Positions 546 through 40,945 of a stretch of 64,000 nucleotides of DNA are shown piece after piece. The position numbers and the translations under genes were made by a program. Each line of letters begins with the position of its first letter. Position 1 is the stretch's first letter. This DNA is from an uncultured Candidatus Saccharibacteria bacterium (GTDB taxonomy: Bacteria > Patescibacteriota > CALEFQ01 > G965231055). The notes below the pieces were generated by a model that saw only the letters and a program-made list of their open reading frames with translations, did not search any database and had not been told where the DNA came from. The stretch covers positions 732,500 through 796,499 of the forward strand of contig OZ246411.1 of assembly GCA_965231055.1 (NCBI GenBank), in the 5' to 3' direction.

Positions 546-2309
546 TTATGGAGTAACTATTTTTTTTCTTTTTGTGCGAATTGTATTCAATATTTCTTCT
601 ATGGCTTGTGGGGAATAAAACATATATATCTGCATACCTTTCCTTCTTCTTAACCCAAATGAATTGGAGTCTGGATTATTCGCCTCATATTTCCCAACGG
701 CTTCATAAAAAGCGTAGAGCGAAATAGAATCATCAGTTTTTTTCAATTCTAAATAACATTCATGGGCTGTTTTCCATCCCCCCTCAGGCTCTCCGATAGA
801 CTCAATAGTATTTTCAATATTCTTTGCTAGCTCTGGTCCAACACATTCCGCTATATTACTCTTCACCCTAAACTTACCAAACCATTCACTGCCATGATCT
901 TCCATGTATTCTTCCAACATGCGCTTCAATGTTTTTCTATTAATACCTAGTTTTTTTGCTAGCGCCTCGACAGAGATCCATTTATCAGGTATCTCGGGAT
1001 ATTTTAAATATTCAAATGCCTTGCTTTCGATAATATCAATTAATTCAGCATCAAGACGTTTAGCACTAGCAACATTTTCGGAGCGCTTAACCCAATCAGG
1101 ACGACTTGTAGTATACTTTTTTACAGCTCTATCTATGAAAGAACGACTAACACCCAATCGTCTAGATAAATCATCAACTGTCTCCCCTTTCATAGATGAA
1201 GCATCGCGAGAATTGATTGCTGAATCAAGTTCATTAAATAACTCTGGGCCAATATGTTCTGCTGCTCTGCCTCGAAGAGGTCTAAATACCTTTGTTGAAC
1301 TTTTATTTTCCATTTTGTCCATTCGTCTTTCGATAGTAGAAATATCAACACCTAACCTTTTTGCAGTTTTTCGTTTCGATCTCCATCCAGATTCAGCGAA
1401 TGGCAACACCTCCTTTTTCATAATAGAAATTAGGTCAGGACTATAGTACTCTCTATTTCCAAACTCACCCGATAGCTCTGGATTTGCTTTCAAATATTTT
1501 TCAGATAGTGAAATAAATTTAGCTCTCCTGACGTGTAATTGCCTTGATGCTCCTCTAGCACTAGGCCACCCCAATGGACGCTCTGACAGAATAGGAGCAT
1601 TTATTTCCTGGGCATCCTTGGATTTCTTTTTAATTTCAACTTCTTTTAATAGAGCTATTCGCATATCATCTTTCCATTTCACCTCATCGCCTGGATATAC
1701 TATCTTATCAACTCGGCCTTCAAGCTCCTGAAGTTGTTGTTTAGTCATTCCTGAATAATCCTCCCAGTTTTCTATGGGGTTTTCAATATCTTTGATGATA
1801 TAAGTGGCATTATCTTCCTCGTTGTTTACCATAACTATTCTCGAGTTTTCTGGAAGTATGAACGGTTGATAACTAAGCTCACGAACCATGTTGGGATCAT
1901 TTTTACCACTAACTACTGAATATGGAATCTGCATATCGGAAAGAAGCTCCATCAGAAACTGGGTTCTGGGGATATATTTGGGCTTTTCGAACTTGTTTTC
2001 TCCAGTTATAGCTCGTTGTATCTCTCCTTGATCTGGAGGAAGAATCACTTTACTTGATTGAATGATCTGATCAGGAAGTCTAAGATTCATTCCCTTTGAA
2101 ATTAGATCATCCACATATTCTTTGACTTTGAAATGGGTGAATTCTTTGCCCTTTTTCACTTCTCTGGTCACGAAGTCTCTAGCATTCAAAATTTGTGCCA
2201 TTTCAAAGATAGGAAGTCCTTCATGCAAATATCCTTCTATTTGCTTACTGGTTTTCATCCTAAAATCTTCTCGTTTTCCTATTTCACTTGATTGTTCTGG
2301 ATTGTTCAT
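546..2309 (-). CDS. paralog-family protein A: conserved ~200-aa N-domain plus C-terminal HTH-like W-repeat modules
   Basis: N-terminal 200 aa about 90% identical to ORF 39164..40945 and about 75% to 37492..39066; C-terminus has repeated modules of form P(D/E)GW..LA..LG(V/I)...TI.R...NPEWF...YYSPE.I. Confidence 0.7.
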   Translation of the reverse strand: MNNPEQSSEIGKREDFRMKTSKQIEGYLHEGLPIFEMAQILNARDFVTREVKKGKEFTHFKVKEYVDDLISKGMNLRLPDQIIQSSKVILPPDQGEIQRAITGENKFEKPKYIPRTQFLMELLSDMQIPYSVVSGKNDPNMVRELSYQPFILPENSRIVMVNNEEDNATYIIKDIENPIENWEDYSGMTKQQLQELEGRVDKIVYPGDEVKWKDDMRIALLKEVEIKKKSKDAQEINAPILSERPLGWPSARGASRQLHVRRAKFISLSEKYLKANPELSGEFGNREYYSPDLISIMKKEVLPFAESGWRSKRKTAKRLGVDISTIERRMDKMENKSSTKVFRPLRGRAAEHIGPELFNELDSAINSRDASSMKGETVDDLSRRLGVSRSFIDRAVKKYTTSRPDWVKRSENVASAKRLDAELIDIIESKAFEYLKYPEIPDKWISVEALAKKLGINRKTLKRMLEEYMEDHGSEWFGKFRVKSNIAECVGPELAKNIENTIESIGEPEGGWKTAHECYLELKKTDDSISLYAFYEAVGKYEANNPDSNSFGLRRRKGMQIYMFYSPQAIEEILNTIRTKRKKIVTP

Positions 2310-2468
2310 GTACTTATTTCTATAATCAATTTACACGAATATGCATCATAAAATCCTTTAAAAAAAGATTTTTTTATTAAAATCTTCTTTTCATCATCAC
2401 GCAAGATAACTAGATTTTGAAATATAGTTAATTATGAACAGAGATAATTATAACAATGAGTTATGAGG

Positions 2469-3395
2469 TTAAATACTCGTCATCTTTCTAATTCTCTCCA
2501 TTTTTTTATTTATCTCATCCTGAATTTCTGCGATGGCTTTTTCGTTTTTTGTAGGTTTAAATAAATGTTTGAAGCGACCTTGCATCTCAAGAAAGTTTTC
2601 TATTGGTTCAAGTTTTTTGGGATCGTAATTCAAAATCCATTTACCATTGTCATATTCATAAAGTGGCCAAAAACCAGTTGAGGTAGCTTTTTTAGCAATT
2701 TCAACTGTTTTTGCGGGTACATATTTCCACCCAGGAACGCATGGAGAAAGAATATTAAGGAAAGTAGGTCCTTTGGTTTCTAGAGCTTTTTTGGCCTTGT
2801 TATAAAGATCTGGCCAATTTGCAATAGATGCCTGCGCTGCATAAGGAACCTTGTGAGCTGCCACGATTTCAAAAAGCTCTTTGCGTTGATTGCTTTTACC
2901 TACCAAGGCAGTACTTCCCACGGGAGTTGTAGTGGTATTGGCACCATAAGGAGTAGCACTAGAGCGCTGAACTCCCGTATTCATATATGCTTCGTTGTCA
3001 TAGCAAATATAGGTAAAATCATGACCTCGCTCGAGTGCCCCTGAAAGAGATTGAAGTCCGATGTCATAGGTACCTCCATCTCCGCCAAAAACCACAAATT
3101 TCACATCTTCTTTTATTCTTCCCTGCTTTTTTAGTGATTTATAAGCAGTCTCGACTCCACTCATCGTAGCTGCAGCATTTTCAAAAGCAGAATGTATCCA
3201 TGGTACATTCCAAGAAGTAAAAGGATATATTGTCGAAGTCACTTCGAGGCACCCCGTAGCATTGGCAACTACTACCGGTTTATTGGTAGCGCGTAGCACA
3301 TGACGAACGATTATAGGAATAGCACAACCCTGGCACGTGCGGTGTCCTTGAACAAATCTTTTTTCTGATTTTTCAAAATCTTTTAGAAGAGGCAT
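2469..3395 (-). CDS. porB: pyruvate:ferredoxin oxidoreductase beta subunit (TPP-binding)
   Basis: CQGC near N-terminus and GGDG..D TPP-binding motif; 308 aa; adjacent to porA, porD, porG. Confidence 0.85.
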   Translation of the reverse strand: MPLLKDFEKSEKRFVQGHRTCQGCAIPIIVRHVLRATNKPVVVANATGCLEVTSTIYPFTSWNVPWIHSAFENAAATMSGVETAYKSLKKQGRIKEDVKFVVFGGDGGTYDIGLQSLSGALERGHDFTYICYDNEAYMNTGVQRSSATPYGANTTTTPVGSTALVGKSNQRKELFEIVAAHKVPYAAQASIANWPDLYNKAKKALETKGPTFLNILSPCVPGWKYVPAKTVEIAKKATSTGFWPLYEYDNGKWILNYDPKKLEPIENFLEMQGRFKHLFKPTKNEKAIAEIQDEINKKMERIRKMTSI

Positions 3396-3407
3396 GATTT
3401 TCTATAA

Positions 3408-4589
3408 TTATTTTTTTCCTGGATATTCGTTGGTCACTTTACCTTTTTTCAAATCATCAAAAACTTTTGCTATTTGACTTTGGGTTATTTCTCTACCGCC
3501 AAGTCCGTAAGTATATCCAAAAACTTCTGGGCTATTTTTTATATTGTGAAGCGCATTCTTAACTTCCGAAGCAACCGGACCATATGCTCCATATGAAAAC
3601 GATCTATCAAGTACCGCAACTCGCTTTGCGCCACTTAGTGCTTTTGCCACTTCAAGATATGGAAAAGGCCTAAACAATCTGATTTTTAGTAAAGCTACGT
3701 TTTCACCCCTAGCTCTCATTTCATCAACTACATCTTTGGCTGCGCCGGCAGTAGAATTCAAAGCAACTATAATATAATCTACTTTGGCATTTTTTGTATC
3801 TTTGCCAGTATAAAATTCTACAACATCAAAACTTCTTCCTATAATTTTGGCCAAAAACTTTGAATGCTTTTTAAATGAATCGTAAGCATTGCCCATTCCC
3901 TGCTCTCTTTTTATAGCATCTTCAAAATAGGAATCAGTTAGCTGAAGCGGACCCACTGTAATAGGATTTTTTATATCTAGAAGATTCACCCATGACTTGA
4001 ATTTTCCTATGAATTTTTGCGCAACACTATCTTCCAAAACTTCAAGATTTGACGCCGTATGAGAAGTGATAAAACCATCCTGCATCACCATGACTGGGAG
4101 TTTAACATCTGCATCTTCTGCAATTTTTTGTGCTACCAAAGAATTGTCATAAACTTCTTGAGGATTTTCACTAAAAATCTGCACCCATCCAGAATCCCTA
4201 CACGCCATTGAATCTGAATGATCACAGTGAATATTTATAGGAGCACTCAATGCTCTATTTACTACATGCATAACTATGGGGAGTCTGAGTCCAGAAGCCA
4301 CTCCAGTAATTTCAAACATCAGGGCCAATCCAGCAGAGGAAGTTGCGGTCATCGCTCTCACTCCAGCTGAGGAAGCACCCACAACGGCACTAAGAGCAGA
4401 GTGCTCTGATTCTACAGGGATCATCTCTGTGTCAACTTTTCCATCAGCGACATACTCAGCAAATTTCTCCACAATTGGAGTTTGAGGAGTAATAGGATAC
4501 GCAGCCACAACATCAGGGTTAACCTGACGCATCACCTCTGCGGCTGCTTCTGCACCTGTTAGAACCAATTTTTTCTGTATATTCTTCAT
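3408..4589 (-). CDS. porA: pyruvate:ferredoxin oxidoreductase alpha subunit
   Basis: 393 aa with typical PorA N-terminus (TGAEAAAEV..AAYPITPQT); operon context. Confidence 0.85.
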   Translation of the reverse strand: MKNIQKKLVLTGAEAAAEVMRQVNPDVVAAYPITPQTPIVEKFAEYVADGKVDTEMIPVESEHSALSAVVGASSAGVRAMTATSSAGLALMFEITGVASGLRLPIVMHVVNRALSAPINIHCDHSDSMACRDSGWVQIFSENPQEVYDNSLVAQKIAEDADVKLPVMVMQDGFITSHTASNLEVLEDSVAQKFIGKFKSWVNLLDIKNPITVGPLQLTDSYFEDAIKREQGMGNAYDSFKKHSKFLAKIIGRSFDVVEFYTGKDTKNAKVDYIIVALNSTAGAAKDVVDEMRARGENVALLKIRLFRPFPYLEVAKALSGAKRVAVLDRSFSYGAYGPVASEVKNALHNIKNSPEVFGYTYGLGGREITQSQIAKVFDDLKKGKVTNEYPGKK

Positions 4590-4961
4590 TTATTTTTTAA
4601 GTTCTTCTGATTTTCTATGACTATGATCACTTTTCTTTTTTCCATCACTACCTATTTTACAAAGATACTCCGGAGTCATATGTATACATTTCACAGGGCA
4701 AACATTGGCACAGATTCCACAACCCTTGCAAAATTCAAAATTAATAGGATTTTCTTCATCTATTTTTCCATTTTTTATATTCCAAATTCCCTCTGGACAA
4801 TAATTAAAACAAGCTAAACAATGAATGCATTTTTTAGCATCTCGCTGGGGCCTTAGAGTTCTCCATGATCCGGTTTTGTATTCAATAGAAGAACCAGGGG
4901 TTCTTATGGTACCACCTACATCAGTCTTTATTTTAGTTGTCTTGGTGTTTTCTTTTGGCAT
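4590..4961 (-). CDS. porD: pyruvate:ferredoxin oxidoreductase delta subunit (2x[4Fe-4S] ferredoxin)
   Basis: Two CxxCxxCxxxCP motifs (CIHCLACFNYCP, CKGCGICANVCP). Confidence 0.85.
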   Translation of the reverse strand: MPKENTKTTKIKTDVGGTIRTPGSSIEYKTGSWRTLRPQRDAKKCIHCLACFNYCPEGIWNIKNGKIDEENPINFEFCKGCGICANVCPVKCIHMTPEYLCKIGSDGKKKSDHSHRKSEELKK

Positions 4962-4962
4962 T

Positions 4963-5523
4963 TTAGATTGATGAATATCCTTCGTTAATAGCTTCTATAT
5001 TTGCTTTGGCAATTTTATCACCGAACTTTTTTACAAAAGATTTTTGTACGAATGCAGTGAATTGATCTATCGTCATATCTTTGCTATTTAGAATTTTCAA
5101 AATACTTCCCATCATCACAGCACTAGGCACTGGCTTACCTATTCTTCTTTCAGCTATCTCAGAAGCATTGATAGTGAAAACTTTGCCCTTGAAACCTTTT
5201 TCTGTTTTTACTCTTTCTCCTGAATCACAAGTATTTACTATAATAATAGTATCAGTACCCACACCTGCTGAAATTTCTGGTTCGTCTATCAGTGTTTCAT
5301 CTAGAACTATAACTAGACTTGGATTTTTTATACCCTCAACAATCCTTATTGGTTTAGAATCTATCCTGAGATACGTTTTCATGGGAGCTCCTTCTCTTTC
5401 GGGACCAAAATCAGGAAAAGCTTGTACATACTTTCCATAGCTACCAAAAGCTTCCGCAAGAATTGTAGCTGCGGTTTTTGCACCTTGTCCTCCCCTGCTG
5501 TGAAAGCGTATTTCAATCATCAA
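4963..5523 (-). CDS. porG: pyruvate:ferredoxin oxidoreductase gamma subunit
   Basis: SRGGQGAKTAA motif; 186 aa; first gene of the por operon. Confidence 0.85.
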   Translation of the reverse strand: MMIEIRFHSRGGQGAKTAATILAEAFGSYGKYVQAFPDFGPEREGAPMKTYLRIDSKPIRIVEGIKNPSLVIVLDETLIDEPEISAGVGTDTIIIVNTCDSGERVKTEKGFKGKVFTINASEIAERRIGKPVPSAVMMGSILKILNSKDMTIDQFTAFVQKSFVKKFGDKIAKANIEAINEGYSSI

Positions 5524-5536
5524 TGTAGAATATTTA

Positions 5537-6589
5537 TTATTGACCCACTAGCTCAAAAGCTTTTTTAGCGAGCATGATCTGCTCATCGGTCTCCATGAAG
5601 CAAATTCTCGCATCGTTGTAGAAAGGTAGCCCCTCTAGGACTTTTTTTCTGATTAAGTCTTCTTGTCTAGCGCCTATTGAACCGGTAAACACTATTATAT
5701 CAATATCTCCCAAAATACCAAAATAGCTACCTATATACTTCTTGATTCTGTAGAAAAACAAATCCACAGCAAGTTTCACATTTTCGTCGTTTTTACTGTA
5801 TTGTTCTAGTATCTTTTTCATGTCTTGATCATATCCAGTCATTCCAGCCATTCCACTTTTTTTAAGTAGCAACTCTTCTAGCTTTTTCATATTGAGATTC
5901 ATAGCATCAGCTATATAAAACATCACTCCGGGATCTATGTCGCCAGATCTCGTCATCATCAAAAGTCCCTCGCTTGGCGTAAATCCCATACTCGTATCTA
6001 TCGCTTTGCCATTTTTTATCGCAGTAATACTTGATCCTCCACCAAGATGACAAGAAATAATACTAGCTTTATCAAAATCCATCTTAAATTCTTTGCAAGC
6101 TTCTTTTGAAGCATATTCATGGGAAAGCCCATGAAAACCTATTCTTTGTATTTTGAGTTTTTGTGTTATGTCTTTGGGAATTCCATAGCTTGTTGCATAA
6201 TCAGGCATATCAGTATAAAAACCAGAATCAAAAACTGCTACGTGTTTTGCGCTAGTAAATATTTTTTGAGAAGCTATTATTGTGTCTAGCTCAGCTGGAT
6301 TGTGAAGAGGTGCTAAAATTGAATACTCCTTTATAGCCTCGAGCACATCGTCATTTATCAAAGTTGGCTTTCTGTATTCTATTCCACCATGCACAACTCT
6401 GTGAGCTACCAAGGTCACATCGCTTCCTTTGAGTTTATCTGACAGCACGTCAACAGCATCTCTATGCGTATCATAAGTACCACCTTTAAAAATATTTCCA
6501 AATTCTCCCGAGTCAATGCAGTTGAAATTCTCGGAATCATATAAACTATATTTCAAAGACTGGGATCCTGAGTTGATTGATAGAATCAT
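5537..6589 (-). CDS. ackA: acetate kinase
   Basis: VAHRVVHGG signature; start set at second Met (MILSINSGSQ) giving a 1-nt ATGA overlap with the upstream pduL stop; longest ORF extends to 6637. Confidence 0.8.
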   Translation of the reverse strand: MILSINSGSQSLKYSLYDSENFNCIDSGEFGNIFKGGTYDTHRDAVDVLSDKLKGSDVTLVAHRVVHGGIEYRKPTLINDDVLEAIKEYSILAPLHNPAELDTIIASQKIFTSAKHVAVFDSGFYTDMPDYATSYGIPKDITQKLKIQRIGFHGLSHEYASKEACKEFKMDFDKASIISCHLGGGSSITAIKNGKAIDTSMGFTPSEGLLMMTRSGDIDPGVMFYIADAMNLNMKKLEELLLKKSGMAGMTGYDQDMKKILEQYSKNDENVKLAVDLFFYRIKKYIGSYFGILGDIDIIVFTGSIGARQEDLIRKKVLEGLPFYNDARICFMETDEQIMLAKKAFELVGQ

Positions 6590-7179
6590 TAGTTTAGATT
6601 TATAATTTTGGCCATAGTTCCTTTTTCTGCCCAACAAGCATTGCCTTCATCAGTATCCAAATGCAATGCTAAGTTAAATTTATCTTTTACTCTCATCGGC
6701 ACTTTTTTAAAAACCAACGGTCTTTGATCAGACGCAATTTCTACATCAACAAGATCGCCATCAGCTACTCCTAGAGCCTTTGCATCTTCGGGACTTGCAT
6801 GAATGTGCTTTTTGGCAACTATCACTCCACCCGACATCTTGACTTCACCCATTGGGCCACGAAGAATTATCGGCGCTGATCCTTCCAGGTCTCCTGACAA
6901 TTTGAGCGGAGCTTCTATACCAAGAAAAAAAGTGTCAGTACGAGAAAGCTCTATTTGAGTTTTTTCTCTGGCGGGTCCCAAGACTCTTATATTTTCCAAA
7001 ACTCTTCCGGAAGGACCTATCGCATTTACAACCTCCCTAGCTGCAAACTCGCCTTCTTGGCTTAGGTCTTTGTATTTGGCTAGGTTATGGTCTGGACCAA
7101 AAAGTTTTTTCATATCAGAAACAGAAATATGCATATGTCTAGCCGAGACTTCTACTGGAATTAAATTAGATGTTTTCAT
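6589..7179 (-). CDS. pduL: PduL-type phosphate acetyl/propanoyl-transferase
   Basis: 196 aa with two-repeat architecture and SARHMHIS motif typical of PduL; directly upstream of ack. Confidence 0.7.
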   Translation of the reverse strand: MKTSNLIPVEVSARHMHISVSDMKKLFGPDHNLAKYKDLSQEGEFAAREVVNAIGPSGRVLENIRVLGPAREKTQIELSRTDTFFLGIEAPLKLSGDLEGSAPIILRGPMGEVKMSGGVIVAKKHIHASPEDAKALGVADGDLVDVEIASDQRPLVFKKVPMRVKDKFNLALHLDTDEGNACWAEKGTMAKIINLN

Positions 7180-8140
7180 ATTTGCTTATTTTTACTTTTT
7201 TAGAAATTTTGTTTAGCACTTTTTCGTTCACCAAACCATGTTGAGCCCCTATTTCTTCGGTTACCTTTGAAGACTGAATAATAGCATATTTGAGCGCTTT
7301 TTCAATATCTTCGTGTTTATAAAATGCCCCTATAAAAGTAGCGCCAAAAGCATCTCCAGTACCAGTTGAATCAACACTTTTTGTATCAACTATATCCACA
7401 TGAAAAAGAGTTTTACCATCATAGACATTGGCACCCGCTTCTCCCTCTGTAATTACAACCATTTTCGCTCCGCACTTGTGCATTTTTTTGGATAGAAATT
7501 CCATATCAGAGCTCTTGGAGCCCAAAAGCAACGAAACCTCTTTTCTATTAATAAGCAGGCAATCTATATCCGGCATTATGGACCTAATAAAATCAGGATT
7601 TTGGGATAACTGATTTTGTCCTGGATTAAACGCTATTTTAAATCCCATTTTGCGCTTAAGCAAAAAGATTTTTTCTAAATCTTGCTGCCAATCACCATGA
7701 AGCGAAGTTATATAAACCCATCTTGGTTTTAGTTTTTTTATACCTTTTACGTAAATGCTCAATTTTTCATTGGCACCTCTTGCTACAAATAAAACATGTC
7801 TTCCTTTTTTCTTGGTTATTAGAACCACTGACACTCCCGTATGACTGTCTTTATCTACCTGAACCAATTCAGTGGAGATACCTCTTTTATATAATTCTGT
7901 TTTTACAATTTCACCTCTCGCATCAGCACCTATGTTTATCATAGGAGCTACAGCCAAATTTAATTTTGAAAGTACAATGGCAGTATTCATACCCCCTCCG
8001 CCCAAATTAAACTCTGCGTTTTGAATTTCTATTTTTCTATCCTCATAAAAACTAAAAAGTGCGTTGCCGTGAGCTTCTGGATTGTTTACAATAAATGAAA
8101 CATCTTCGAGAGCACTTCCTATTGTTATAAAATCGTACAT
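7166..8140 (-). CDS. PfkB/ribokinase-family carbohydrate kinase
   Basis: N-terminal GG motif (NLGGGGMN) and C-terminal DSTGTGDAFGATFIGAF anion-hole motif. Confidence 0.75.
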   Translation of the reverse strand: MYDFITIGSALEDVSFIVNNPEAHGNALFSFYEDRKIEIQNAEFNLGGGGMNTAIVLSKLNLAVAPMINIGADARGEIVKTELYKRGISTELVQVDKDSHTGVSVVLITKKKGRHVLFVARGANEKLSIYVKGIKKLKPRWVYITSLHGDWQQDLEKIFLLKRKMGFKIAFNPGQNQLSQNPDFIRSIMPDIDCLLINRKEVSLLLGSKSSDMEFLSKKMHKCGAKMVVITEGEAGANVYDGKTLFHVDIVDTKSVDSTGTGDAFGATFIGAFYKHEDIEKALKYAIIQSSKVTEEIGAQHGLVNEKVLNKISKKVKISKYENI

Positions 8141-8149
8141 TATAAAAAA

Positions 8150-8467
8150 TTATTTTTTAAATCTTTTTTTGTCTCTGTTGGTGTTTTTGTCCATCATTTT
8201 TTTAAACGCATCTGTCAGATCAATCCCCGTATTATTGGCAATGCATATTAATACAAAAAGCACATCGGCCAACTCACCTGCCAAATCATGACCCTCTTCT
8301 TTTTTAAATTTCTGATCACCATATGTTCGAGATATAATCCTAGCAACCTCGCCAACTTCTTCTGTTAACTGTGCTAGCTGAGTCATCTCTGAAAAATATC
8401 TAACACCAATATTTTTAATCCAATCATCTACTATTTTTTGCGATTCTTTAATGGTGATATCTCCCAT
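8150..8467 (-). CDS. MazG-like nucleotide pyrophosphohydrolase (small single-domain)
   Basis: E..GE..R..GD..K/E..ELADV motif layout of MazG-like NTP-PPases; start placed at internal Met to avoid overlap with gpmI. Confidence 0.55.
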   Translation of the reverse strand: MGDITIKESQKIVDDWIKNIGVRYFSEMTQLAQLTEEVGEVARIISRTYGDQKFKKEEGHDLAGELADVLFVLICIANNTGIDLTDAFKKMMDKNTNRDKKRFKK

Positions 8468-8471
8468 AAAT

Positions 8472-10049: not shown

Positions 10050-10052
10050 AAT

Positions 10053-11330: not shown

Positions 11331-11338
11331 ATTTTTAT

Positions 11339-12502: not shown

Positions 12503-12503
12503 T

Positions 12504-14139: not shown

Positions 14140-14149
14140 TATTTTAATT

Positions 14150-26992: not shown

Positions 26993-27005
26993 CTGATTGC
27001 TTTAA

Positions 27006-27695: not shown

Positions 27696-27704
27696 ATTTT
27701 TTGA

Positions 27705-28241: not shown

Positions 28242-28246
28242 TTTAG

Positions 28247-28582: not shown

Positions 28583-28606
28583 ATTGGTAAATAAAATTAG
28601 GTTAAA

Positions 28607-29437: not shown

Positions 29438-29441
29438 ATTA

Positions 29442-29870: not shown

Positions 29871-29874
29871 ATCT

Positions 29875-30513: not shown

Positions 30514-30515
30514 GA

Positions 30516-31136: not shown

Positions 31137-31249
31137 TGTATATATGATTTCTAAAAAATGCAGGTCTGCCCTGCATGCTGAAAACAGCTCACAGGCCAGC
31201 CCAGTATCCCACTAACCAAAATTGGTTAATTTGGACTTAAACTAGCTTA

Positions 31250-31600
31250 TTATTGCATTTTAATTTCCACATCAACTCCAGCTGGAAGATTTAGGTTCAT
31301 AAGAGAATCTATAGTCTTTGGAGATAGATTGGTAATATCTATCAATCTCTTGTGAACTCTCATCTCATACTGATCTTTTGATGTAGTATCAATAAAAGGA
31401 GAACGATTTACAGTATAAACCGATCTTTCAGTTGGAAGTGGTATCGGACCAGAAATATTGGCTCCGCTCCTCTTTGCGGTCTCCACTATTTGTTTAGCAG
31501 ACTGCTCAATGATCGTATGATCATAAGCTCTTACCTTGATCCTTATTCTTTGATTTACACCTTCTTCAGTTTCCTTTTTTGAAGAACTCTGCTTTGACAT
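31250..31600 (-). CDS. rpsJ: 30S ribosomal protein S10
   Basis: [11 protein letters not shown] motif. Confidence 0.95.
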
Positions 31601-31658
31601 AATTTATCTTTTAAGAAAGGTGTGCTAGGTATCTAACACACCATATCTCAAGAGATAA

Positions 31659-32867: not shown

Positions 32868-33043
32868 TTTTTTATTGTTTCTTTGGGATCACAATTACCC
32901 ATGTGACCCTATATTAATTATTAATAAAAATACAAAACTAGACAATTTATGCGTGTTTTTTAGTATAACACACACCTAAATATGTGCAAGCTAAAATGCA
33001 ATATATAATTTCTACACTAAAATTCAAAACAAGTCAATAGGTA

Positions 33044-35119
33044 TTATTTTGCATCCTCTCCGATAATATCTTTGGCTATATTTCCTGGAACTTCTGCATA
33101 ATGATCGAACTCCATGTTGAAACTAGCTCTTCCCTGCGACATAGATCTTAGCGTAGTAGCATATCCAAACATAGAAGATAGAGGAACCTTTGATCTAATT
33201 GCCTTTATATTGGCGGCTCTATCTGTCATTTCTTCAATTTGACCTCTTTTTGAGTTGATATCTCCGACTATATCACCCATGAATTGCTCAGGAGTTGTAA
33301 CTTCAACTTTCATGATAGGCTCCAAAATAACTGGCTTGGCTCTTCTAACAGCTTCCTTGAAAGCCATTGACGCAGCGATCTTGAATGCAGCCTCGGAAGA
33401 GTCAACTTCATGATATGAACCATCAAACAGGGTTGCTTTCATGTCTATTGCTGGATATCCCGCTATAACTCCATTATCCATAGATTCCCTTACTCCTTTT
33501 TCAACCGGAGGAATGTATTCCTGTGGAATTACTCCACCCTTAATAGCATTTTCAAATTCAAAACCCTTGCCTCTTTCTCGTGGTTCAACCCTTAGGTAAA
33601 CATGTCCGTACTGGCCACGTCCTCCAGATTGTTTTATATATTTTCCTTCGGCTTCTGCTGACTTGGTTATAGTTTCTCTGTAAGCCACCTGAGGTTTTCC
33701 AACATTGGCTTCTACTTTGAATTCTCTCTTCATTCTTTCAACAAGAACATCGAGGTGAAGCTCACCCATACCTGAAATGATGGTCTGACCACTTTCTTCA
33801 TCTCCTTTTACGGTAAAAGTAGGATCTTCTTCAGCTAATTTATTTAGCGCTATGCCAAGTTTTTCTTGGTCAGCCTTGGTTTTTGGTTCAATCGCCAATG
33901 ATATAACTGGCTCAGGAGCTTCTATTCTTTCTAGAATAATAGGATTTTTTTCATCGCAAAGAGTATCTCCAGTCTTAGTGGTTTTAAGCCCTACGGCTGC
34001 GGCTATATTTCCTGCTGAAATTTCTTTTATCTCTTCTCTTTTATTTGCATGCATGTGAAGAATTCGTCCTATTCTCTCTCTCGTACCTTTTGTAGAATTG
34101 TAAATATAAGAACCGGCTTCGAGCTTACCCGAATATACTCTAAAAAAAGCTAAGCTTCCTACAAATGGATCTGTTGCAATTTTAAAAGCTAATGCAGAAA
34201 AAGGCTCATCGTCACTTGCTTTTCTTTGCAATTCTGATTTTTCATCTCTAGGATCAATTCCATGAACTGGTGGCACATCGGATGGAGCTGGTAGGTACCA
34301 GATAACTGCATTCAACATGGATTGCACTCCTTTGTTTTTCAGAGCGGATCCGCAAAGTACTGGATAGATTTTATTTTCAACTGTATGTTTTCTTAAAACT
34401 TTCTTGATTTCTTCTACTGTGACTTCTTTTTCTTCAAGAAATTTTTCAGCTATACCATCGTCAATATCAGCAAGCTTTTCAAGCATCTTATCTCTCCATT
34501 CCTTCGCCTTGGCCTTCATATCTTCTCTAATCTCAGAAGTTTCCATTTTTTCTCCCATCTCGCCATGGAATGAAAGTTCTTTCATCTCAACCAAATCTAT
34601 GCAAGCTTCAAAATTTGCTTCTGTTCCGATTGGGTACTGAATTGGTATTGCATTTGGATTTAGTCTTTCCAAAATTGAATTGTAAGACATTTCAAAATCT
34701 CCACCTGTCTTATCAAGTTTGTTTATAAAACAAAGTCGCGGAACTTTGTATTTGTCTGCTTGTCTCCAGACAGTTTCTGATTGTGGTTCTACTCCCTGAG
34801 CTCCGTCAAATACCACAACGCCTCCATCAAGAACCCTGAGAGATCTTTCTACCTCTACGGTAAAGTCTACGTGCCCTGGGGTATCGATGAGGTTAATGCG
34901 ATGATCCATCCAAAAACAGGTAGTAGCAGCGGCGGTTATCGTGATTCCTCTTTCTTTTTCCTGATCCATCCAGTCCATATCCGCCTCTCCTTCATGAGTT
35001 TCTCCTATTTTGTGCTTTTTTCCAGTGTAATACAAAACACGCTCTGAAACAGTAGTTTTCCCAGCGTCAATATGAGCAATGATTCCTATATTTCTTGTTT
35101 TGTCTATTGAATATTCCAT
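33044..35119 (-). CDS. fusA: elongation factor G
   Basis: 691 aa with [17 protein letters not shown] and NKLD motifs. Confidence 0.95.
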
Positions 35120-35205
35120 TTTTAAGAAGGATTAGCGTTAGATGAAAAAAATTTATAAATCAATTTCACCAATAAAGCCGCCCATATAGACAGCTTTAAA
35201 AAGAA

Positions 35206-35670
35206 TTAAGCAAAGTGAGCAAACGCCTTGTTTGCTTCTGCCATTCTGTGCACATCAGCTCTATGCTTTACCGAAGCACCTTCACCTTTTGAGGCATCAA
35301 GAAGCTCTGTAGCTAATTTTATGTGCATTGGCTTGCCTTTTTTATTTGAAGCTGATTCTAAGATCCATCTAAATGCGAGCATTTGTTTTCTATCACCACG
35401 TACTTCCATTGGTATTTGATAGTTTGCTCCTCCAACTCTCTTTGCCTTGATTTCAAGCACAGGAGCTACGTTTTTCATAGCTTTATCAAAAATAGAAAGT
35501 GGGTCTATCTTGGTTTTTTCTTTTATATAATCAAAAGTGTCATATACAATTTTGCGAGCCACTTCCTTCTTGCCTCTCTCCATAAGATAATTTATGAATT
35601 TAGCAATAACAACGCTTTTATAGCGCGGATCTGGCTGAATTTCTCTTTTTTTAGCTCTTGCTCTTCGCAT
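35206..35670 (-). CDS. rpsG: 30S ribosomal protein S7
   Basis: 154 aa, canonical S7 motifs. Confidence 0.95.
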   Translation of the reverse strand: MRRARAKKREIQPDPRYKSVVIAKFINYLMERGKKEVARKIVYDTFDYIKEKTKIDPLSIFDKAMKNVAPVLEIKAKRVGGANYQIPMEVRGDRKQMLAFRWILESASNKKGKPMHIKLATELLDASKGEGASVKHRADVHRMAEANKAFAHFA

Positions 35671-35696
35671 ATTTAATCAAAATTTATTAACTAGAA

Positions 35697-36122
35697 TTAT
35701 TTCTTTTCCTTAGGTTTTTTGGCTCCATATTTGCTTCTTTGCTGCATTCTTCCATCAACTCCAGCAGTATCTAGAATTCCTCTTACTACATGATATCGAA
35801 CACCTGGTAGATCAGGCACTCTTCCTCCTCGAACCAATACCACGGAGTGTTCCTGCAAATTATGTCCTTCACCTGGAATATATGCGGTTACTTCCATACC
35901 ATTGGTAAGTCTTACCTTTGCTATTTTTCTCAAAGCTGAGTTTGGTTTTTTTGGAGTAGTAGTTTTTACTACAAGACAAACACCGCGCTTGAAAGGATTT
36001 CCTTTGCGTAGTTTTACCGGTTTATTCTTTAACGTGTTGAACTGGGTTTGCAAAGCTGGGGTCCTACTTTTTTTCTTGGGACTCTTTCGGCCTTTGCGGA
36101 CCAGCTGATTCATTGTTGGCAT
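35697..36122 (-). CDS. rpsL: 30S ribosomal protein S12 (about 17-aa insertion after residue 22 relative to E. coli)
   Basis: [11 protein letters not shown] and [12 protein letters not shown] motifs. Confidence 0.95.
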
Positions 36123-36296
36123 AAAAATACTGCTTTTGTAAGCTTAAATAAGTACTTGCATAATTTAGCAGACAACAAAACAAGAGTCAAGTGTATTTCC
36201 GCTAAAATTGACAACAAAATATAAAAATGGTAGTTTCCGCACAATGAGTTTGATCTTTTCCCAGCATTTTGCACAAAACACGAAAGGAGACGCAAA

Positions 36297-36776
36297 ATGA
36301 CAAAGAAGGAATACCAAAAGGTTATTGAGGGTATTGTTTCTCCGATTTGGAAAGAAGAGTTCGGAGATCTCAATGAGGCATTTTCTCGTTCAATATCGGA
36401 TGACACCGAAACACCATGTATCGACTGGGGCAAGGATGTCTACATCAATTTTCATCCTGACTTCAGGGGATTCAACATTGATATATTCCAAAACTTCAAA
36501 ATACCCACCGATTGTACGTTCGACAATGGCATAAAAATCATCAACCTTGCACTTACCACAATGGCTATTAAGATTGATTGGATTCGGGTTTGGAAAGAAG
36601 AATTTTGGGACACTGGCTTCAGCATTAACATGCAACCTTTTCAAATTGAAGACTCCAAAAGCTTCACCGCCAATGTCGAGATTCTTGCAATCCAAAACCC
36701 AAGTGCAAAAAAACTATCTTCAGCACTGAAAATCTTATTCGCCATACTGGGATCGTCAAATTGGCCAAAATCATAA
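36297..36776 (+). CDS. hypothetical protein (159 aa), W/F-rich
   Basis: GGAG RBS 7-8 nt upstream; TTGACA-like promoter near 36207; terminator follows. Confidence 0.5.
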   Translation: MTKKEYQKVIEGIVSPIWKEEFGDLNEAFSRSISDDTETPCIDWGKDVYINFHPDFRGFNIDIFQNFKIPTDCTFDNGIKIINLALTTMAIKIDWIRVWKEEFWDTGFSINMQPFQIEDSKSFTANVEILAIQNPSAKKLSSALKILFAILGSSNWPKS

Positions 36777-36800
36777 CTGCACACTACCCTTTTTCGAACG

Positions 36801-36830
36801 AAACGGGAACCCCAAGGTTTCCGTTTTTTA
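36801..36830 (+). terminator. rho-independent terminator
   Basis: aacgggaa / ttccgtt stem followed by tttttt. Confidence 0.55.
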
Positions 36831-36834
36831 ATAT

Positions 36835-37479
36835 TTAAACTAATTCTTTGCTTTCCAAAAATGTTTTTACTTTCTGAAAAATCAATTTATGTCCTACGGC
36901 ATTGAAATGTACCCCATCCTTATCTAGAACCTTCTCAATTCCAGTTTTTTCGAGCTCTGGCCATATCTCTACAAATTCAACACCCACATTTTCACAAACC
37001 GATTTGGCAATACATCCATATTCCTTCTTGTCTTTGTTACTATATGAGAAATTGGCATCCCAGGAAACTGGATGTGTTTTCAATTCATCCACCATCCCCG
37101 TACCAATAAAAATCACATTTTTAACGAGCTTTTTGGCTTTATCGAGAATCTGCTCAAGATTTAATTTAAAATCCATAGAAGACACTGCGTTGGTATTTTT
37201 ATCTTTTAGAAAAGCTGAGTCATTACTTCCAACTCTAATCAATATAGTCGTCTCATCGTATTTATCATATTTTTATCTAGCTACGGTTTCGCTTTCTATT
37301 CTTTTCAAAACTCCACTAGTGTCATCGCCATCTATCCCGAGATTATAAACTAAAACAAAATAATCCTTACCCTCCATATTTTTCTCGTCAGCAAATTTAC
37401 GAAGTCTTGCGACCCAGCCACCATCAGGATCCCAAGCACCGTAAGTATTGCTATCTCCGAAAATTAAAATTTGAGACAT
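36835..37479 (-). pseudogene. SGNH/GDSL hydrolase interrupted by an in-frame TAA
   Basis: Blocks I GDSNTYG, II GIDGDDTSG, III GSND and V DGVHFN all in one frame; single TAA at 37273..37275 between blocks II and III. Confidence 0.5.
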
Positions 37480-37491
37480 AAATTAAATCTA

Positions 37492-39066
37492 TTAATCTTC
37501 TGATTTCAATTTTGTAATAGCTTTACTAACGGCATCTATCACGCTCGGGGAGTAAAACTTAAGCAATTTACCATTTTTTCTTAAGGACCTAACGAATTGA
37601 TTGCCGTGGCTTTCCACATAATCATGTACGAAGTTGTACACATCAAAATAAATAATACTGGGATTAACCTTCTTGAGATCCATAAATATTTCATGCGAGT
37701 TTTTCCAGCCATCGGGAATTTCAGAAGTTAGAGAAATTTCTTCTTCAATCTCCTGAATCAAATTTAGAGAAACGCACTCTGCAATATTATTGTTAACTAA
37801 GAATGAATGAAACCATTCGGGATGATTTTTGCGAAATTTATTGACCATGCCTACAACTGAAGTTCGATCTTTTCCTAATTTACGCGACAGTGCTTTTAGA
37901 GACATCCAGTTATCGGGAATTTTCTCATACTGACCCCTATTTTTCACCTCATCCGTTAATACTTGAACTAACTCCGGAGAAATACATTGAATCATGTGAT
38001 TTGTTTTTCGGCTTTTAAAAATTTTTACGCCTTCCGGATTATTTTTTTCATATTTACCTAATTTACGGTGAATTGTACTAATATCCAATCCCATTTCATC
38101 AGCCAATTGCCCTAGTGTCTTCCAACCATCTGGCACATCAGCGCGTCCATTTATTTTTGAGGTAATCGCTCTTATTGCTTCGGGAGAAATATAATTATGT
38201 GCGCGACCAATTTTGTTACGAAAACATTGCGTTTTGTCTTCTATACCCAACCCATCTAATTCTTTTTTGATTACAGAAAAATCTACGCCCAGATCGTGAG
38301 CCAGATCAGAAGCGCTCTTCCATCCTTCTGGCAAATCATCAAGACCATGGAGAGCGATTTTTTTAGTATTTCGAGGCTTTTTTATCTGTTCCGCTTCTTT
38401 GGAAAGTTTAGTGCGAAGCCTCTCTTTCCACTTAGTTGGATCATTTGAATAATTAATCTGAACAACTCGACTCTCAAGCTCTTGCAATTGCTGCTTAGTC
38501 ATTTTGGAGTAATGCCCCCAATTTTCTGTGGGATTTTCAACATTCCTGATGACATATGTGGCATTTCCTTCTTCGTTGTTCACCATTATGATCTTTGATT
38601 CTCCTTGTAAAACAAATGTTTGGTAGCTGAGTTTGCGAACCATGTTGGGATCATTTCTTCCACTAATAACTGAATATGGTATTTGCATATCAGAAAGCAC
38701 TTCCATCAAAAACTGGGTTCTAGGGATATATTTGGGTTTTTCAAGTTTGTTTTTTCCGGTAACCGCTTGCTGTATCTCTCCTTGATCTGGAGGCAAGATA
38801 ACCTCATTTGATTGAATTATCTGCTCTGGAAGTTGCAATTCAGAACCCCTGGCAATCAAACTATCTACATACTCTTTGACTCTAAAATGAGTAAACTCTT
38901 TACCTTTGCGACGTTCCACACCCACAAAGTCTTTTGCATTTAAGATTTGAGCCATTTCAGCAACTGGAAGTCCTTCACGCAAATACTCCTCTATCTTTCG
39001 GCTAGTTTGTATTCTAAAATTCTCATTTTTACCGATGGCTTCTCTTGATTGTTCTGGGTTGTTCAT
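37492..39066 (-). CDS. paralog-family protein B (conserved N-domain plus HTH-like W-repeat modules)
   Basis: MNNPEQS N-terminus; about 75% identity over first 200 aa to the other two members; C-terminal modules PDGWK..LA..LG.D.STI.R.L.KY..NNPE. Confidence 0.7.
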   Translation of the reverse strand: MNNPEQSREAIGKNENFRIQTSRKIEEYLREGLPVAEMAQILNAKDFVGVERRKGKEFTHFRVKEYVDSLIARGSELQLPEQIIQSNEVILPPDQGEIQQAVTGKNKLEKPKYIPRTQFLMEVLSDMQIPYSVISGRNDPNMVRKLSYQTFVLQGESKIIMVNNEEGNATYVIRNVENPTENWGHYSKMTKQQLQELESRVVQINYSNDPTKWKERLRTKLSKEAEQIKKPRNTKKIALHGLDDLPEGWKSASDLAHDLGVDFSVIKKELDGLGIEDKTQCFRNKIGRAHNYISPEAIRAITSKINGRADVPDGWKTLGQLADEMGLDISTIHRKLGKYEKNNPEGVKIFKSRKTNHMIQCISPELVQVLTDEVKNRGQYEKIPDNWMSLKALSRKLGKDRTSVVGMVNKFRKNHPEWFHSFLVNNNIAECVSLNLIQEIEEEISLTSEIPDGWKNSHEIFMDLKKVNPSIIYFDVYNFVHDYVESHGNQFVRSLRKNGKLLKFYSPSVIDAVSKAITKLKSED

Positions 39067-39102
39067 AATTGTATTCTAAAATTTATTCTTAAAAAATATT
39101 CG
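39067..39102 (-). promoter_or_regulatory. conserved promoter block of the paralog family, -10-like TAGAAT 6 nt from the ATG
   Basis: Gene-orientation sequence cgaatattttttaagaataaattttagaatacaatt followed by ATG; nearly identical to 40946..40981. Confidence 0.45.
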
Positions 39103-39163
39103 ACTTTATCAATTCCCCTTTCAATAAGACGCTCAAACTTACGCTGCACACAAAAACCTTAAC

Positions 39164-40945
39164 TCAAACTTTTTTAGAATCGCTTTTATTTCTACTCGCC
39201 TTAATTATTTCCATTATATCCATTATTGCTTCGGGAGAATAATAATTGGCTACTTGCCCTCTTTTATTTCTATAAATTTTTATATCATCAGTGCCAGGAT
39301 TTTTTGACTCATATGCCTTGAAAATGTTGTGAACAAACGAAAAAGATATGGATTCACCCTCGCGCTTTAATTCTTTGTAAATTTCATTTGAGTTTTTCCA
39401 GCCCTCTGGGGCATACTCAACGGCTCCGATATCTGCTTCTATTTTTCTCTCCAGCTCGTCCGAAAAACACTGTACAGAAATATTTTTCTTCCAAAACTCG
39501 CCAAACCATTCAGGATTAGTGGAGCGATATGATCCTGCCATTTTTGAAACAAGACTTTCGCTAACACCAATCCTATTCGCCATTGATTTTATAGTAAACC
39601 AACCCTCTGGAAGCTTGTCATGCTCCCTGGGCTTCAATATTTCTTCTTTAATTATTCTAGACATCTTTGGGCTAGCATAAAAAGCTAGTCCTTGACCTTT
39701 TACTTTTTGAAGTTTTTTAATATCTTCACCGCTATTATCGTCATACTTTTTTAATCTATCAATAACAGTATTCTTATCAACCTTCAATCTTTTTGAAATA
39801 TCCAAAGCAGACTCCCAATCGCTAGAAATATCTTCTTGATAACTAAGGGCAGTAGTAATTTTGTCAATCAAATCCGGAGAAAGATATGTAGAGCCCAGCA
39901 AACTAGTTTTCGAACGAAATCGTCCTTTCAACTTCCAACCATCTCCTTCGATTTTTTTAGCTATATTTTCAACGGTATAAAAATCAATTCCTAAATCACG
40001 AGCAACTTGACTGATTAGTTTCCAACCATCTGGAGGAAATGGCAACATCTCCGCTTCAATTTTTTTAAGAATATCCGGGTTATAATACTTTTTCCCTCCA
40101 AATTCTCGCATCAAAGTTGGATTGTTTTCTAGGTGTTTTTCGGCCATGGAAATGAAAGCATCTCTATCTATCTTCAATTGAATGGCAATTTTTTTTGCAG
40201 AACCCCAACCATTATCCAATAATTCATTCAACCCCAGCTCAGCCCCCCTGTCATACTTTTTGCGATCAAAATTACTATCTTGAAGCAGTAAAGATTTTAC
40301 TTCCTGTTTCCAGCTATCCACATTTCCTAGATATGGCAATTTTTCAATTTTATCACCCAACTCTTGCAGTTGTTGCTTAGTCATTTTTGAATAATTCTCC
40401 CAGTTTTCTATGGGGTTTTCAATGTCTTTAATGATATAAGTGGCATTTCCTTCTTCATTGTTTACCATAACTATTCTTGAGTTTTCTGGAAGTATAAATA
40501 GCTGATAGCTAAGCTTACGAACCATATTGGGATCGTTTTTACCACTAACTACTGAATATGGAATTTCCATATCAGAGAGAAGCTCCATTAGGAACTGAGT
40601 TCTGGGGATATATTTGGGCTTTTCGAATTTGTTTTCTCCTGTTGTAGCTTGTTGTATTTCACCCGCATCAGGCGGTAAAATCAATTCCCCTGATTGTATT
40701 ATTGTTTCTGGGAGTTGCAGGTTCGCCCCCTTTGAAATTAGATCATCCACATATTCTTTGACTTTGAAATGGGTGAATTCTTTACCCTTTTTCACTTCTC
40801 TGGTCACAAAGTCTCTGGCGTTCAAAATTTGTGCCATTTCAGAGACAGGAAGTCCTTCACGCAAATATCCCTCTATTCGCTTACTTGTCTTCATTCTAAA
40901 ATCTTCCCTCTTTCCTATTTCATTTGATTGTTCTGGATGGTTCAT
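39164..40945 (-). CDS. paralog-family protein C (conserved N-domain plus HTH-like W-repeat modules)
   Basis: MNHPEQS N-terminus; about 90% identity over first 200 aa to ORF 546..2309; four roughly 70-aa C-terminal modules. Confidence 0.7.
   Translation of the reverse strand: MNHPEQSNEIGKREDFRMKTSKRIEGYLREGLPVSEMAQILNARDFVTREVKKGKEFTHFKVKEYVDDLISKGANLQLPETIIQSGELILPPDAGEIQQATTGENKFEKPKYIPRTQFLMELLSDMEIPYSVVSGKNDPNMVRKLSYQLFILPENSRIVMVNNEEGNATYIIKDIENPIENWENYSKMTKQQLQELGDKIEKLPYLGNVDSWKQEVKSLLLQDSNFDRKKYDRGAELGLNELLDNGWGSAKKIAIQLKIDRDAFISMAEKHLENNPTLMREFGGKKYYNPDILKKIEAEMLPFPPDGWKLISQVARDLGIDFYTVENIAKKIEGDGWKLKGRFRSKTSLLGSTYLSPDLIDKITTALSYQEDISSDWESALDISKRLKVDKNTVIDRLKKYDDNSGEDIKKLQKVKGQGLAFYASPKMSRIIKEEILKPREHDKLPEGWFTIKSMANRIGVSESLVSKMAGSYRSTNPEWFGEFWKKNISVQCFSDELERKIEADIGAVEYAPEGWKNSNEIYKELKREGESISFSFVHNIFKAYESKNPGTDDIKIYRNKRGQVANYYSPEAIMDIMEIIKASRNKSDSKKV

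What the first reader, a model, noticed from the sequence alone, without database searches (positions are those of the whole stretch)
546..40945. Three-member paralog family with a conserved 200-aa N-domain and variable HTH-like W-repeat C-termini, under a conserved promoter abutting the start codon
ORFs 546..2309, 37492..39066 and 39164..40945 all start MN(N/H)PEQS and share 75-90% identity over about 200 aa. This includes nucleotide-level conservation, which is why the antisense shadow ORFs 2122..2325 and 40614..40958 also look alike. Their C-terminal halves differ in length and sequence. They are built from 3-5 loosely repeated ~70-aa modules of the form P(D/E)GW(K)..(L)A..LG(V/I)D.STI.R.L.KY...NPEWF ... 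YYSPE(L/A)I. The LAKKLGINRKTLKRML-type segments look like helix-turn-helix units, and there is no signal peptide or TM segment, so these look like cytoplasmic multi-HTH proteins. The two tandem copies share a 36-nt identical upstream block (cgaatattttttaagaataaattYtagaataYaatt) with a TAGAAT/TATAAT-like -10 only 6 nt from the ATG, implying leaderless or near-leaderless mRNAs. The third copy has a related TATAGAAAT block. An expanded, fast-diverging family with a conserved head and variable repeat tail, with two copies next to the str operon in place of the usual rpoBC, suggests a lineage-specific system. Speculative roles include DNA or RNA binding, phage defence or antirepressor-like function, or a mobile-element remnant. 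I could not assign any known family.
Basis: partly seen in the sequence, partly recalled or inferred. Interest (0 to 1): 0.7.

Follow-up and report, generated by a model that had tools for sequence, protein, structure and literature searches.

The report
CPR multi-HTH repeat-array protein family
Three paralogous genes in this small Patescibacteria (CPR) genome belong to a large uncharacterised family that joins a conserved new 225-residue head domain to interchangeable arrays of helix-turn-helix-like repeats, which most likely bind DNA.

Summary
Three minus-strand ORFs (546..2309, 37492..39066, 39164..40945) share a head of about 200 aa at 75-88% identity. Their tails carry 5, 4 and 5 copies of a ~67-aa repeat, detected by an HMM built only from foreign proteins.

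Nearly every relative carries a tandem-repeat tail. Most have this "PEGW...HPEWF" repeat, which is new to Pfam. Others have INT_rpt, HNH_repeat or unnamed repeats. PEGW arrays also occur on SF2 helicases and SNF2-methyltransferase fusions. Tails are basic and heads acidic, which fits modular DNA-targeting arrays carrying a common head of unknown activity.

The "conserved promoter" is misread. Upstream of copy C it is the last 11 codons of an FtsJ-like gene. Upstream of copy B it is a duplicated relic kept at 34/36, so a regulatory role is plausible but leaderless transcription is untested.

I found no transposon, phage or defence signature.

The parts
546..2309 (-). Paralog A, 587 aa: head plus 5 PEGW repeats
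   Evidence: ORF; head HMM E 5e-117; 5 repeats
1605..2309 (-). Paralog A head domain (aa 1-235)
   Evidence: Alignments A1 and A2; 86% nt identity to C from -17 to codon ~195
567..1580 (-). Paralog A repeat array (aa 244-581, 5 units); basic, pI 9.5
   Evidence: Pfam HTH_28, HTH_23, HTH_8 and HTH_29 above cut-off
37492..39066 (-). Paralog B, 524 aa: head plus 4 PEGW repeats (lacks repeat 1)
38359..39066 (-). Paralog B head domain (aa 1-236)
37501..38334 (-). Paralog B repeat array (aa 245-522, 4 units)
39164..40945 (-). Paralog C, 593 aa: head plus 5 PEGW repeats
40241..40945 (-). Paralog C head domain (aa 1-235). AlphaFold2 model m906a63d6ee6c, pLDDT 92.6, pTM 0.88
39191..40213 (-). Paralog C repeat array (aa 245-585, 5 units)
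40946..40981 (-). 36-nt block upstream of C. It encodes the last residues (..EYFLRINSRI*) of the FtsJ-like gene; stop codon 40948..40950, 2 nt before C's ATG
   Evidence: the FtsJ Pfam domain reaches residue 215 of 220
39067..39102 (-). 36-nt block upstream of B. A non-coding duplicated relic of the FtsJ-like 3' end, 34/36 identical to the C copy; candidate promoter or 5' region
   Evidence: The 24 nt further upstream are only 12/24 identical.
2310..2326 (-). About 17 nt upstream of A that still align with the block (TTATAGAAATAAGTAC)
40948..41610 (-). FtsJ/TlyA-like methyltransferase gene directly upstream of C; source of the block
   Evidence: Pfam FtsJ E 1.1e-27
2122..2325 (+). Antisense shadow ORF over the head-coding DNA of A (artefact)
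40614..40958 (+). Antisense shadow ORF over the head-coding DNA of C (artefact)

Best explanation
A, B and C are old paralogs of a Patescibacteria-wide family of soluble two-part proteins.

The C-terminal half is an array of ~67-aa modules with consensus APEGW..-LA..LG....TV...A..YR..HPEWF..Y....G...EHYSPELV. Each module starts with a helix-turn-helix. The array most likely lies along double-stranded DNA, each module contacting a few base pairs, so that the number and sequence of modules set the target.

The N-terminal 225-aa head is acidic, strongly conserved and of a fold with no close known relative. It carries a conserved polar cluster (R115, R143, Y147, E164, N167, T169, K190, and a G-x-G-x-G loop in most relatives). 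It supplies whatever the family does once on DNA: partner recruitment or oligomerisation (regulator or nucleoid protein), or a still unknown catalytic or ligand-binding activity.

The three copies arose by duplication of a C-like gene together with the end of the upstream FtsJ-like gene, and would now address different DNA sites.

Shown: paralogy, repeat structure, the HTH signature, family size and domain combinations, and the charge asymmetry. Inferred: DNA binding, one-module-one-subsite reading, and the role of the head.
For: - Repeats are real and HTH-like. TIGR01764 excisionase-type and PADLOC mad1 matches fall on the same helices.
- 113 of the 152 proteins then in hand (150 of them listed hits of the head profile) carry 1-12 PEGW repeats. 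26 of 28 others also carry tandem repeats of period 57-126 (most 57-97), including Pfam INT_rpt (P0009, P0016, P0120, P0148) and HNH_repeat (P0151). These two repeat types are otherwise found on integrases and homing endonucleases.
- PEGW arrays are also fused to at least 20 SF2 helicases and to SNF2+methyltransferase proteins, or stand alone. All these partners act on DNA.
- Family-wide, tails are basic (median pI 9.1; 97 of 126 above 8) and heads acidic (median 5.2).
- In 276 within-protein pairs of recently duplicated repeats, differences concentrate in columns 8-25 (the HTH) and 41-48 (the loop). The PEGW, HPEWF and EHYSPELV scaffold stays fixed.
- The head is under strong purifying selection (dN/dS 0.06-0.11) and the tails are more relaxed (0.24-0.49).
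- The head model has pLDDT 92.6. R143 and Y147 are invariant, and E164, N167, T169, K190 and R115 are conserved in 94-96% of sequences.
- Across 33 non-redundant loci there is no conserved neighbour, so the gene works as a stand-alone unit.
Against:
- HTH profile matches in B and C are below the Pfam cut-offs. The repeat profile reaches only E 0.02 against PDB sequences.
- HTH-like modules can also bind RNA or protein.
- The window proteins deviate from the family at the glycine loop (G101 to T/I/V, G105 to N) and at H173 (to K).
Confidence: 0.55

Rival explanations
1. Free-standing selfish or site-specific DNA enzyme. The head is a new catalytic domain (nuclease, recombinase-like or DNA-modifying) and the array gives it a long recognition site, as NUMOD, HNH_repeat and INT_rpt arrays do for homing endonucleases and integrases.
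For: - Relatives carry INT_rpt and HNH_repeat arrays.
- The head has invariant R143 and Y147, plus conserved E164, N167, T169, K190 and a G-rich loop, which looks like an active site.
- There is no conserved neighbourhood, and the genes sit between housekeeping genes.
- This genome holds several paralogs.
Against: - No nuclease or recombinase motif or fold is recognised.
- The paralogs are old and the head is under strong purifying selection, unlike decaying homing genes.
- There are no terminal repeats and no copies on viral contigs.
- The head is acidic.
Confidence: 0.15
2. Anti-phage or conflict system sensor. The variable arrays recognise invader nucleic acid or proteins, and the head signals or executes.
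For: - A conserved head with a fast-varying recognition tail is the typical layout of immune sensors.
- PEGW arrays sit on SF2 and SNF2 helicase-methyltransferase fusions that resemble restriction or defence enzymes.
Against: - PADLOC hits are HTH-only (mad1, CasR, Csa3 HTH).
- The neighbours are housekeeping genes, with no defence island.
- No partner gene is conserved.
Confidence: 0.08
3. The arrays bind RNA or protein rather than DNA, acting as a scaffold or adaptor.
For: - The HTH evidence comes from sequence profiles only.
- Best fold neighbours of the head include chaperone-like and protein-binding domains such as YbjN, T3SS chaperones and the FP domain.
Against: - The fusion partners of the same repeat are DNA helicases and methyltransferases.
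- The tails are basic.
- The variable positions fall in the HTH.
Confidence: 0.12
4. Transposase or mobile-element remnant.
For: Weak matches fall on the N-terminal HTH parts of IS630, IS481 and IS21 transposase models and on phrog_151.
Against: - Those matches cover only HTH segments and lie far below the cut-offs (22 bits against a cut-off of 100).
- There is no DDE or other catalytic domain.
- No terminal inverted repeats flank any copy.
- Gaps to the flanking genes are 2-14 nt.
Confidence: 0.02

Closest known systems
Tandem HTH DNA-binding arrays: Myb/SANT R1R2R3 repeats and the archaeal CRISPR-repeat-binding protein Cbp1
   Same: Consecutive helix-turn-helix modules with conserved tryptophans, each expected to read a short stretch of DNA. 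There is a weak NCBIfam match to HTH_Cbp1 in copy C (E 0.004).
   Different: - The module is longer (~67 aa against about 45-52) and has an extra HPEWF...EHYSPELV part.
- Arrays reach 12 units in the listed head-family hits and 16 in P0153.
- Homology is not significant.
- The arrays are attached to a head domain absent from those proteins.
Pfam INT_rpt (PF14882) and HNH_repeat (PF18780) arrays of integrases and homing endonucleases
   Same: Tandem ~55-65-aa predicted DNA-binding repeats used as interchangeable targeting modules. Some members of this head family carry exactly these repeats in place of PEGW.
   Different: The window proteins carry neither. The PEGW profile against the INT_rpt profile gives hhalign probability 0.6%.
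MerR/excisionase-type and other winged HTH domains (Pfam HTH_17, HTH_28, HTH_23, HTH_29; TIGR01764)
   Same: The first ~32 residues of each repeat match these HTH models, above the Pfam cut-off in copy A.
   Different: These are single-copy domains in small regulators. Here they form tandem arrays with a distinct conserved C-terminal half.
TnsE C-terminal domain and T4 MotA C-terminal 'double-wing' domain (best fold neighbours of the head)
TALE/BurrH-type programmable repeat proteins
   Same: Modular tandem repeats with a fixed scaffold and variable positions, and a variable repeat number between relatives.
   Different: Repeats within the window proteins are only 18-37% identical to each other. 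They are twice as long and HTH-based, and no repeat-to-base code is evident.

Membership tests
Helix-turn-helix superfamily (Pfam HTH clan) for the repeats | Profile match to an HTH model at or above the curated cut-off | tested here: met
   Copy A: HTH_28 38.2 bits (cut-off 25), HTH_23 37.7 (24.6), HTH_8 32.5 (22), HTH_29 30.3 (28.1). B and C match only below cut-off. The foreign-built repeat HMM links all 14 units.
Helix-turn-helix superfamily (Pfam HTH clan) for the repeats | Tri-helical fold with a recognition helix, seen in a structure or a confident model | not tested
   Both structure-prediction jobs went to the head. The repeat profile against PDB sequences gives a best E of 0.021, to the winged-helix regulator 3r0a.
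INT_rpt (PF14882) / HNH_repeat (PF18780) | Pfam match above cut-off, or profile-profile homology | tested here: not met
   No hit in A, B or C. hhalign of PEGW against INT_rpt gives probability 0.6%. The repeats are present in other members of the head family.
Insertion-sequence transposase | Catalytic (DDE or other) domain plus terminal inverted repeats | tested here: not met
   Only the HTH parts match, far below cut-off. No flanking inverted repeats.
Known anti-phage defence proteins (PADLOC) | Match to a defence-protein model beyond a generic HTH, in a defence-gene context | tested here: not met
   Only mad1, CasR and Csa3 HTH segments match. The neighbours are housekeeping genes.
Phage-encoded proteins | Relatives on viral contigs or in PHROGs or BFVD | tested here: not met
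   No relative in IMG/VR. PHROG hits are HTH-only. No BFVD fold match at E of 0.001 or better.
Leaderless mRNA genes | -10 element about 6-7 nt upstream of the start codon | tested here: met
   TAGAAT ends 6 nt before the ATG in B and C, and TAGAAA ends 7 nt before it in A. Only 3 of 66 genes in the window have such a hexamer there. The consensus promoter scan is not above shuffles.
Leaderless mRNA genes | Mapped transcription start at the A of the ATG | not testable with these tools
   This needs 5'-RACE or dRNA-seq. For C the alternative is read-through from the FtsJ-like gene, which ends 2 nt upstream.

The most novel reading that the evidence does not exclude
The family is a new class of modular, repeat-programmed DNA-targeting proteins of CPR bacteria. 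Each PEGW module would read a defined DNA sub-site through its variable HTH and loop positions. The conserved head would be a previously unknown DNA-acting enzyme or effector built around R143 and Y147. The same array would be reused to steer helicases and SNF2-methyltransferases.
Probability: 0.12. Interest if true: 0.85.

Novelty: new variant of a known kind. Interest (0 to 1): 0.55.

Why it matters
CPR/Patescibacteria have tiny genomes in which a large share of genes has no assigned function. This genome (one 843,892-bp contig) keeps three copies of this gene.

The work defines two building blocks that current domain libraries do not cover:
- a confidently modelled head domain without close structural relatives;
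- a ~67-aa HTH-based repeat that also decorates helicases and SNF2-methyltransferases.

If the arrays read DNA module by module, they would explain how these organisms target regulators and DNA enzymes. They could also offer a new scaffold for engineered DNA recognition. If the head is catalytic, it would be a new enzyme family.

At the least, the finding gives annotators two new profiles and corrects a misread promoter.

Tried and rejected
- **Low-complexity noise.** Rejected: a foreign-built HMM finds every unit.
- **Transposon.** There are no terminal inverted repeats and only sub-threshold HTH matches to IS transposases.
- **Phage origin.** There are no viral contigs, no BFVD fold match, and PHROG hits are HTH-only.
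- **Defence system.** PADLOC hits are HTH-only.
- **Conserved operon partner.** None across 33 non-redundant loci, and tandem pairs occur only in this window.
- **Head residues 1-75 as a degenerate PEGW repeat.** hhalign probability is 1.7%.
- **PEGW as a form of INT_rpt.** hhalign probability is 0.6%.
- **Head related to a solved structure by sequence.** Nothing turned up with the 6-sequence or the 141-sequence profile. The one hit to the N-terminal helix profile is a designed repeat protein.
- **Block as an operator repeated elsewhere.** Only the two known copies exist in 64 kb.
- **Searches that failed.** The AFDB fold library was not available. The exact look-up of copy C in the contig index found nothing, and the cluster look-up gave no names.
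- **Literature.** Searches found no description of the family.
Full report
**1. What is in the sequence**

Three minus-strand ORFs lie at the stated coordinates:
- A: 546..2309, 587 aa
- B: 37492..39066, 524 aa
- C: 39164..40945, 593 aa

The first ~197 codons are 88% (A-C), 75% (A-B) and 76% (B-C) identical in protein, and 86%, 74% and 73% identical in DNA. blastn similarity ends sharply near codon 195-205, and no nucleotide similarity is detectable beyond that point.

The plus-strand ORFs 2122..2325 and 40614..40958 lie on this conserved DNA and resemble each other for that reason only. None of the three proteins has a hydrophobic segment.

**2. The repeats are real**

I built an HMM only from the repeats of two foreign proteins, P0004 and P0005. 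It detects 5, 4 and 5 units of about 67 aa in A, B and C, with independent E-values from 3e-5 to 3e-16.

The units are positionally collinear between paralogs. A1-C1 are 46% identical, A4-B4 42% and A5-C5 38%. Units within one protein are only 18-37% identical to each other. B has lost unit 1. The arrays are therefore old and diverged in place.

The first ~32 residues of a unit match HTH models. This is above the Pfam cut-offs in A (HTH_28, HTH_23, HTH_8, HTH_29 and others) and below them in B and C. Excisionase-type TIGR01764, PADLOC mad1 and a winged-helix PDB regulator match the same helices.

**3. The family**

The word-indexed search found only 7 relatives. A profile of the head run against 1.84 billion cluster representatives found far more:

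| E-value threshold | Proteins found |
|---|---|
| 1e-3 or better | 961 |
| 1e-10 or better | 588 |
| 1e-30 or better | 140 |

The head is almost always at the N-terminus of proteins 400-1100 aa long.

Named genomes carrying it are CPR: Moran-, Magasanik-, Doudna- and Saccharibacteria, plus one MAG labelled Bdellovibrionales. The window comes from a contig of 843,892 bp, which fits a CPR genome.

No Pfam, NCBIfam, PHROG or PADLOC model covers the head. This includes the newer Pfam release used for the precomputed annotations. No PDB sequence matches it either.

**4. The head**

With a 141-sequence alignment, AlphaFold2 gives pLDDT 92.6 and pTM 0.88. The model has these parts:
- a long N-terminal helix, a short helix, a beta-hairpin and a further helix (residues 1-72);
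- an extended conserved PP(D)xGE segment and a G-x-G-x-G loop;
- an alpha-beta4-alpha-alpha-beta-alpha sandwich (residues 115-221).

All are at 6-14% identity. BFVD gives nothing.

R143 and Y147 are invariant. R115, E164, N167, T169 and K190 are conserved in 94-96% of sequences. G101, G103 and G105 are conserved in 78-92%. The window proteins keep all of these except G101 and G105, and they have K instead of the usual H at position 173.

The pattern looks like a binding or active site, but I could not assign an activity. The head is under strong purifying selection (dN/dS 0.06-0.11), while the tails score 0.24-0.49 with saturated dS.

**5. What the tails tell**

Of the 152 proteins then in hand (150 of them listed hits of the head profile), 113 carry 1-12 PEGW units.

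Of the 28 others with a long tail, 26 have significant internal periodicity of 57-126 aa, most between 57 and 97. Some of these are Pfam INT_rpt (P0009, P0016, P0120, P0148) or HNH_repeat (P0151), and others match no Pfam repeat family. By profile comparison, PEGW is related neither to INT_rpt nor to the head's own N-terminal subdomain.

A search with an 11-unit array shows that PEGW arrays also occur in other architectures:
- C-terminal to at least 20 SF2 helicases (DEAD/ResIII/SWI2_SNF2 plus Helicase_C);
- N-terminal to SNF2-methyltransferase fusions (P0175, P0177, P0183, P0186);
- as array-only proteins.

Family-wide, tails are basic (median pI 9.1) and heads acidic (median 5.2). Across 617 PEGW units, recently duplicated units within one protein differ mainly in columns 8-25 (the HTH) and 41-48 (a loop). 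The PEGW, YR, HPEWF and EHYSPELV positions stay fixed.

Together this points to a portable DNA-targeting array whose specificity residues vary. No experiment or structure confirms this.

**6. Context**

Across 33 non-redundant loci there is no conserved neighbour. The neighbours are ordinary chromosomal genes. Only this window has a tandem pair. No inverted repeats flank the copies, and no relatives lie on viral contigs.

In the window, B and C sit upstream of rpsL. They are separated from it by an interrupted GDSL-hydrolase gene and one plus-strand ORF. rpoBC is not in the window.

**7. The upstream block**

Upstream of C, the 36 nt (40946..40981) are the last codons of the FtsJ-like methyltransferase gene 40948..41610 (..EYFLRINSRI, stop). 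The Pfam FtsJ domain runs to residue 215 of 220, and the stop codon is 2 nt from C's ATG. The copy upstream of B (39067..39102) therefore descends from that coding sequence through the tandem duplication.

Conservation around B's start is uneven:

| Segment (B vs C) | Identity | Source |
|---|---|---|
| 24 nt further upstream | 12/24 | |
| The 36-nt block | 34/36 | |
| First 22 nt of the CDS | 20/22 | |
| Head-coding DNA | 73% | |

The chance of 34/36 at a 73% background is about 1e-3. So the block in B is either constrained, as a promoter or translation-initiation region, or was recently converted.

A TAGAAT ends 6 nt before the ATG in B and C, and a TAGAAA ends 7 nt before it in A. Such a hexamer at that distance occurs in only 3 of 66 genes here. 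Against this:
- consensus promoter counts do not exceed shuffles;
- Shine-Dalgarno motifs are rare genome-wide, in 8 of 66 genes;
- most homologues elsewhere have their TATAAT 17-26 nt upstream.

Leaderless expression is possible but untested. C could equally be read through from the FtsJ-like gene.

**8. History**

A and C, 38 kb apart, are the closest pair (head dS 0.63). Both pairs involving B are saturated. Either A is the youngest duplicate or its head was converted by C.

**9. Verdict**

The genes belong to a widespread, uncharacterised CPR family with a new head and a new HTH-based repeat. They most likely act as modular DNA-binding proteins whose head function is unknown.

Confidence is about 0.55 for the DNA-targeting model. 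The enzyme or homing reading stands at about 0.15, RNA or protein binding at about 0.12, and defence at about 0.08. A transposon remnant is effectively excluded.

Noticed in passing
window 36835..37479 (-): A GDSL/SGNH hydrolase gene directly downstream of copy B is interrupted by a single in-frame TAA (..ETVAR*KYDKYDE..). This splits it into ORFs 37273..37479 and 36835..37242. It is a pseudogene or a sequencing error.
   Followed up: partly
window 48808..52929 and 52960..55155 (-): Two adjacent ribonucleotide-reductase genes, each with a TSCPD domain. One is 1373 aa and its barrel domain matches in three separate stretches. This suggests a large insertion, possibly an intein, but no intein model was seen at E of 0.001 or better.
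   Followed up: no
window 43441..44097 and 44160..44768 (-): Tandem pair of nucleoside-diphosphate-kinase paralogs. Each matches the NDK profile in two stretches, which implies an insertion. Tandem duplication seems common in this region.
   Followed up: no
whole window: - Nearly all genes lie on the minus strand, and GC skew is negative in all but one 2-kb bin.
- Only 8 of 66 genes have a Shine-Dalgarno-like motif, and ribosomal-protein genes are among those without one.
- No Rfam family, including tRNA, reaches its gathering score in 64 kb.
   Followed up: partly
window 31..531 (-) and 36297..36776 (+): Two ORFs (166 and 159 aa) with no Pfam match. One lies 14 nt downstream of copy A. The other is the only plus-strand ORF between rpsL and the hydrolase gene. 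Neither recurs next to family members elsewhere.
   Followed up: partly
relatives P0006, P0155, P0158, P0174-P0177, P0183, P0186; locus L012 10001..12220: The PEGW repeat is a portable module. It is found C-terminal to SF2 helicases and N-terminal to SNF2+methyltransferase fusions of about 1300 aa, and also as array-only proteins. These architectures appear undescribed.
   Followed up: partly
loci L013 2650..3210, L014 2695..6902, L012 4476..5114: Sigma-70-family genes lie within a few kb of the family gene or the PEGW-helicase gene in three unrelated loci. This may be coincidence.
   Followed up: no
relatives P0021, P0039, P0031, P0058, P0145: Head-family members with other tandem repeats (periods about 75-85 aa). 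No Pfam repeat family explains these repeats; their few Pfam matches look spurious.
   Followed up: partly
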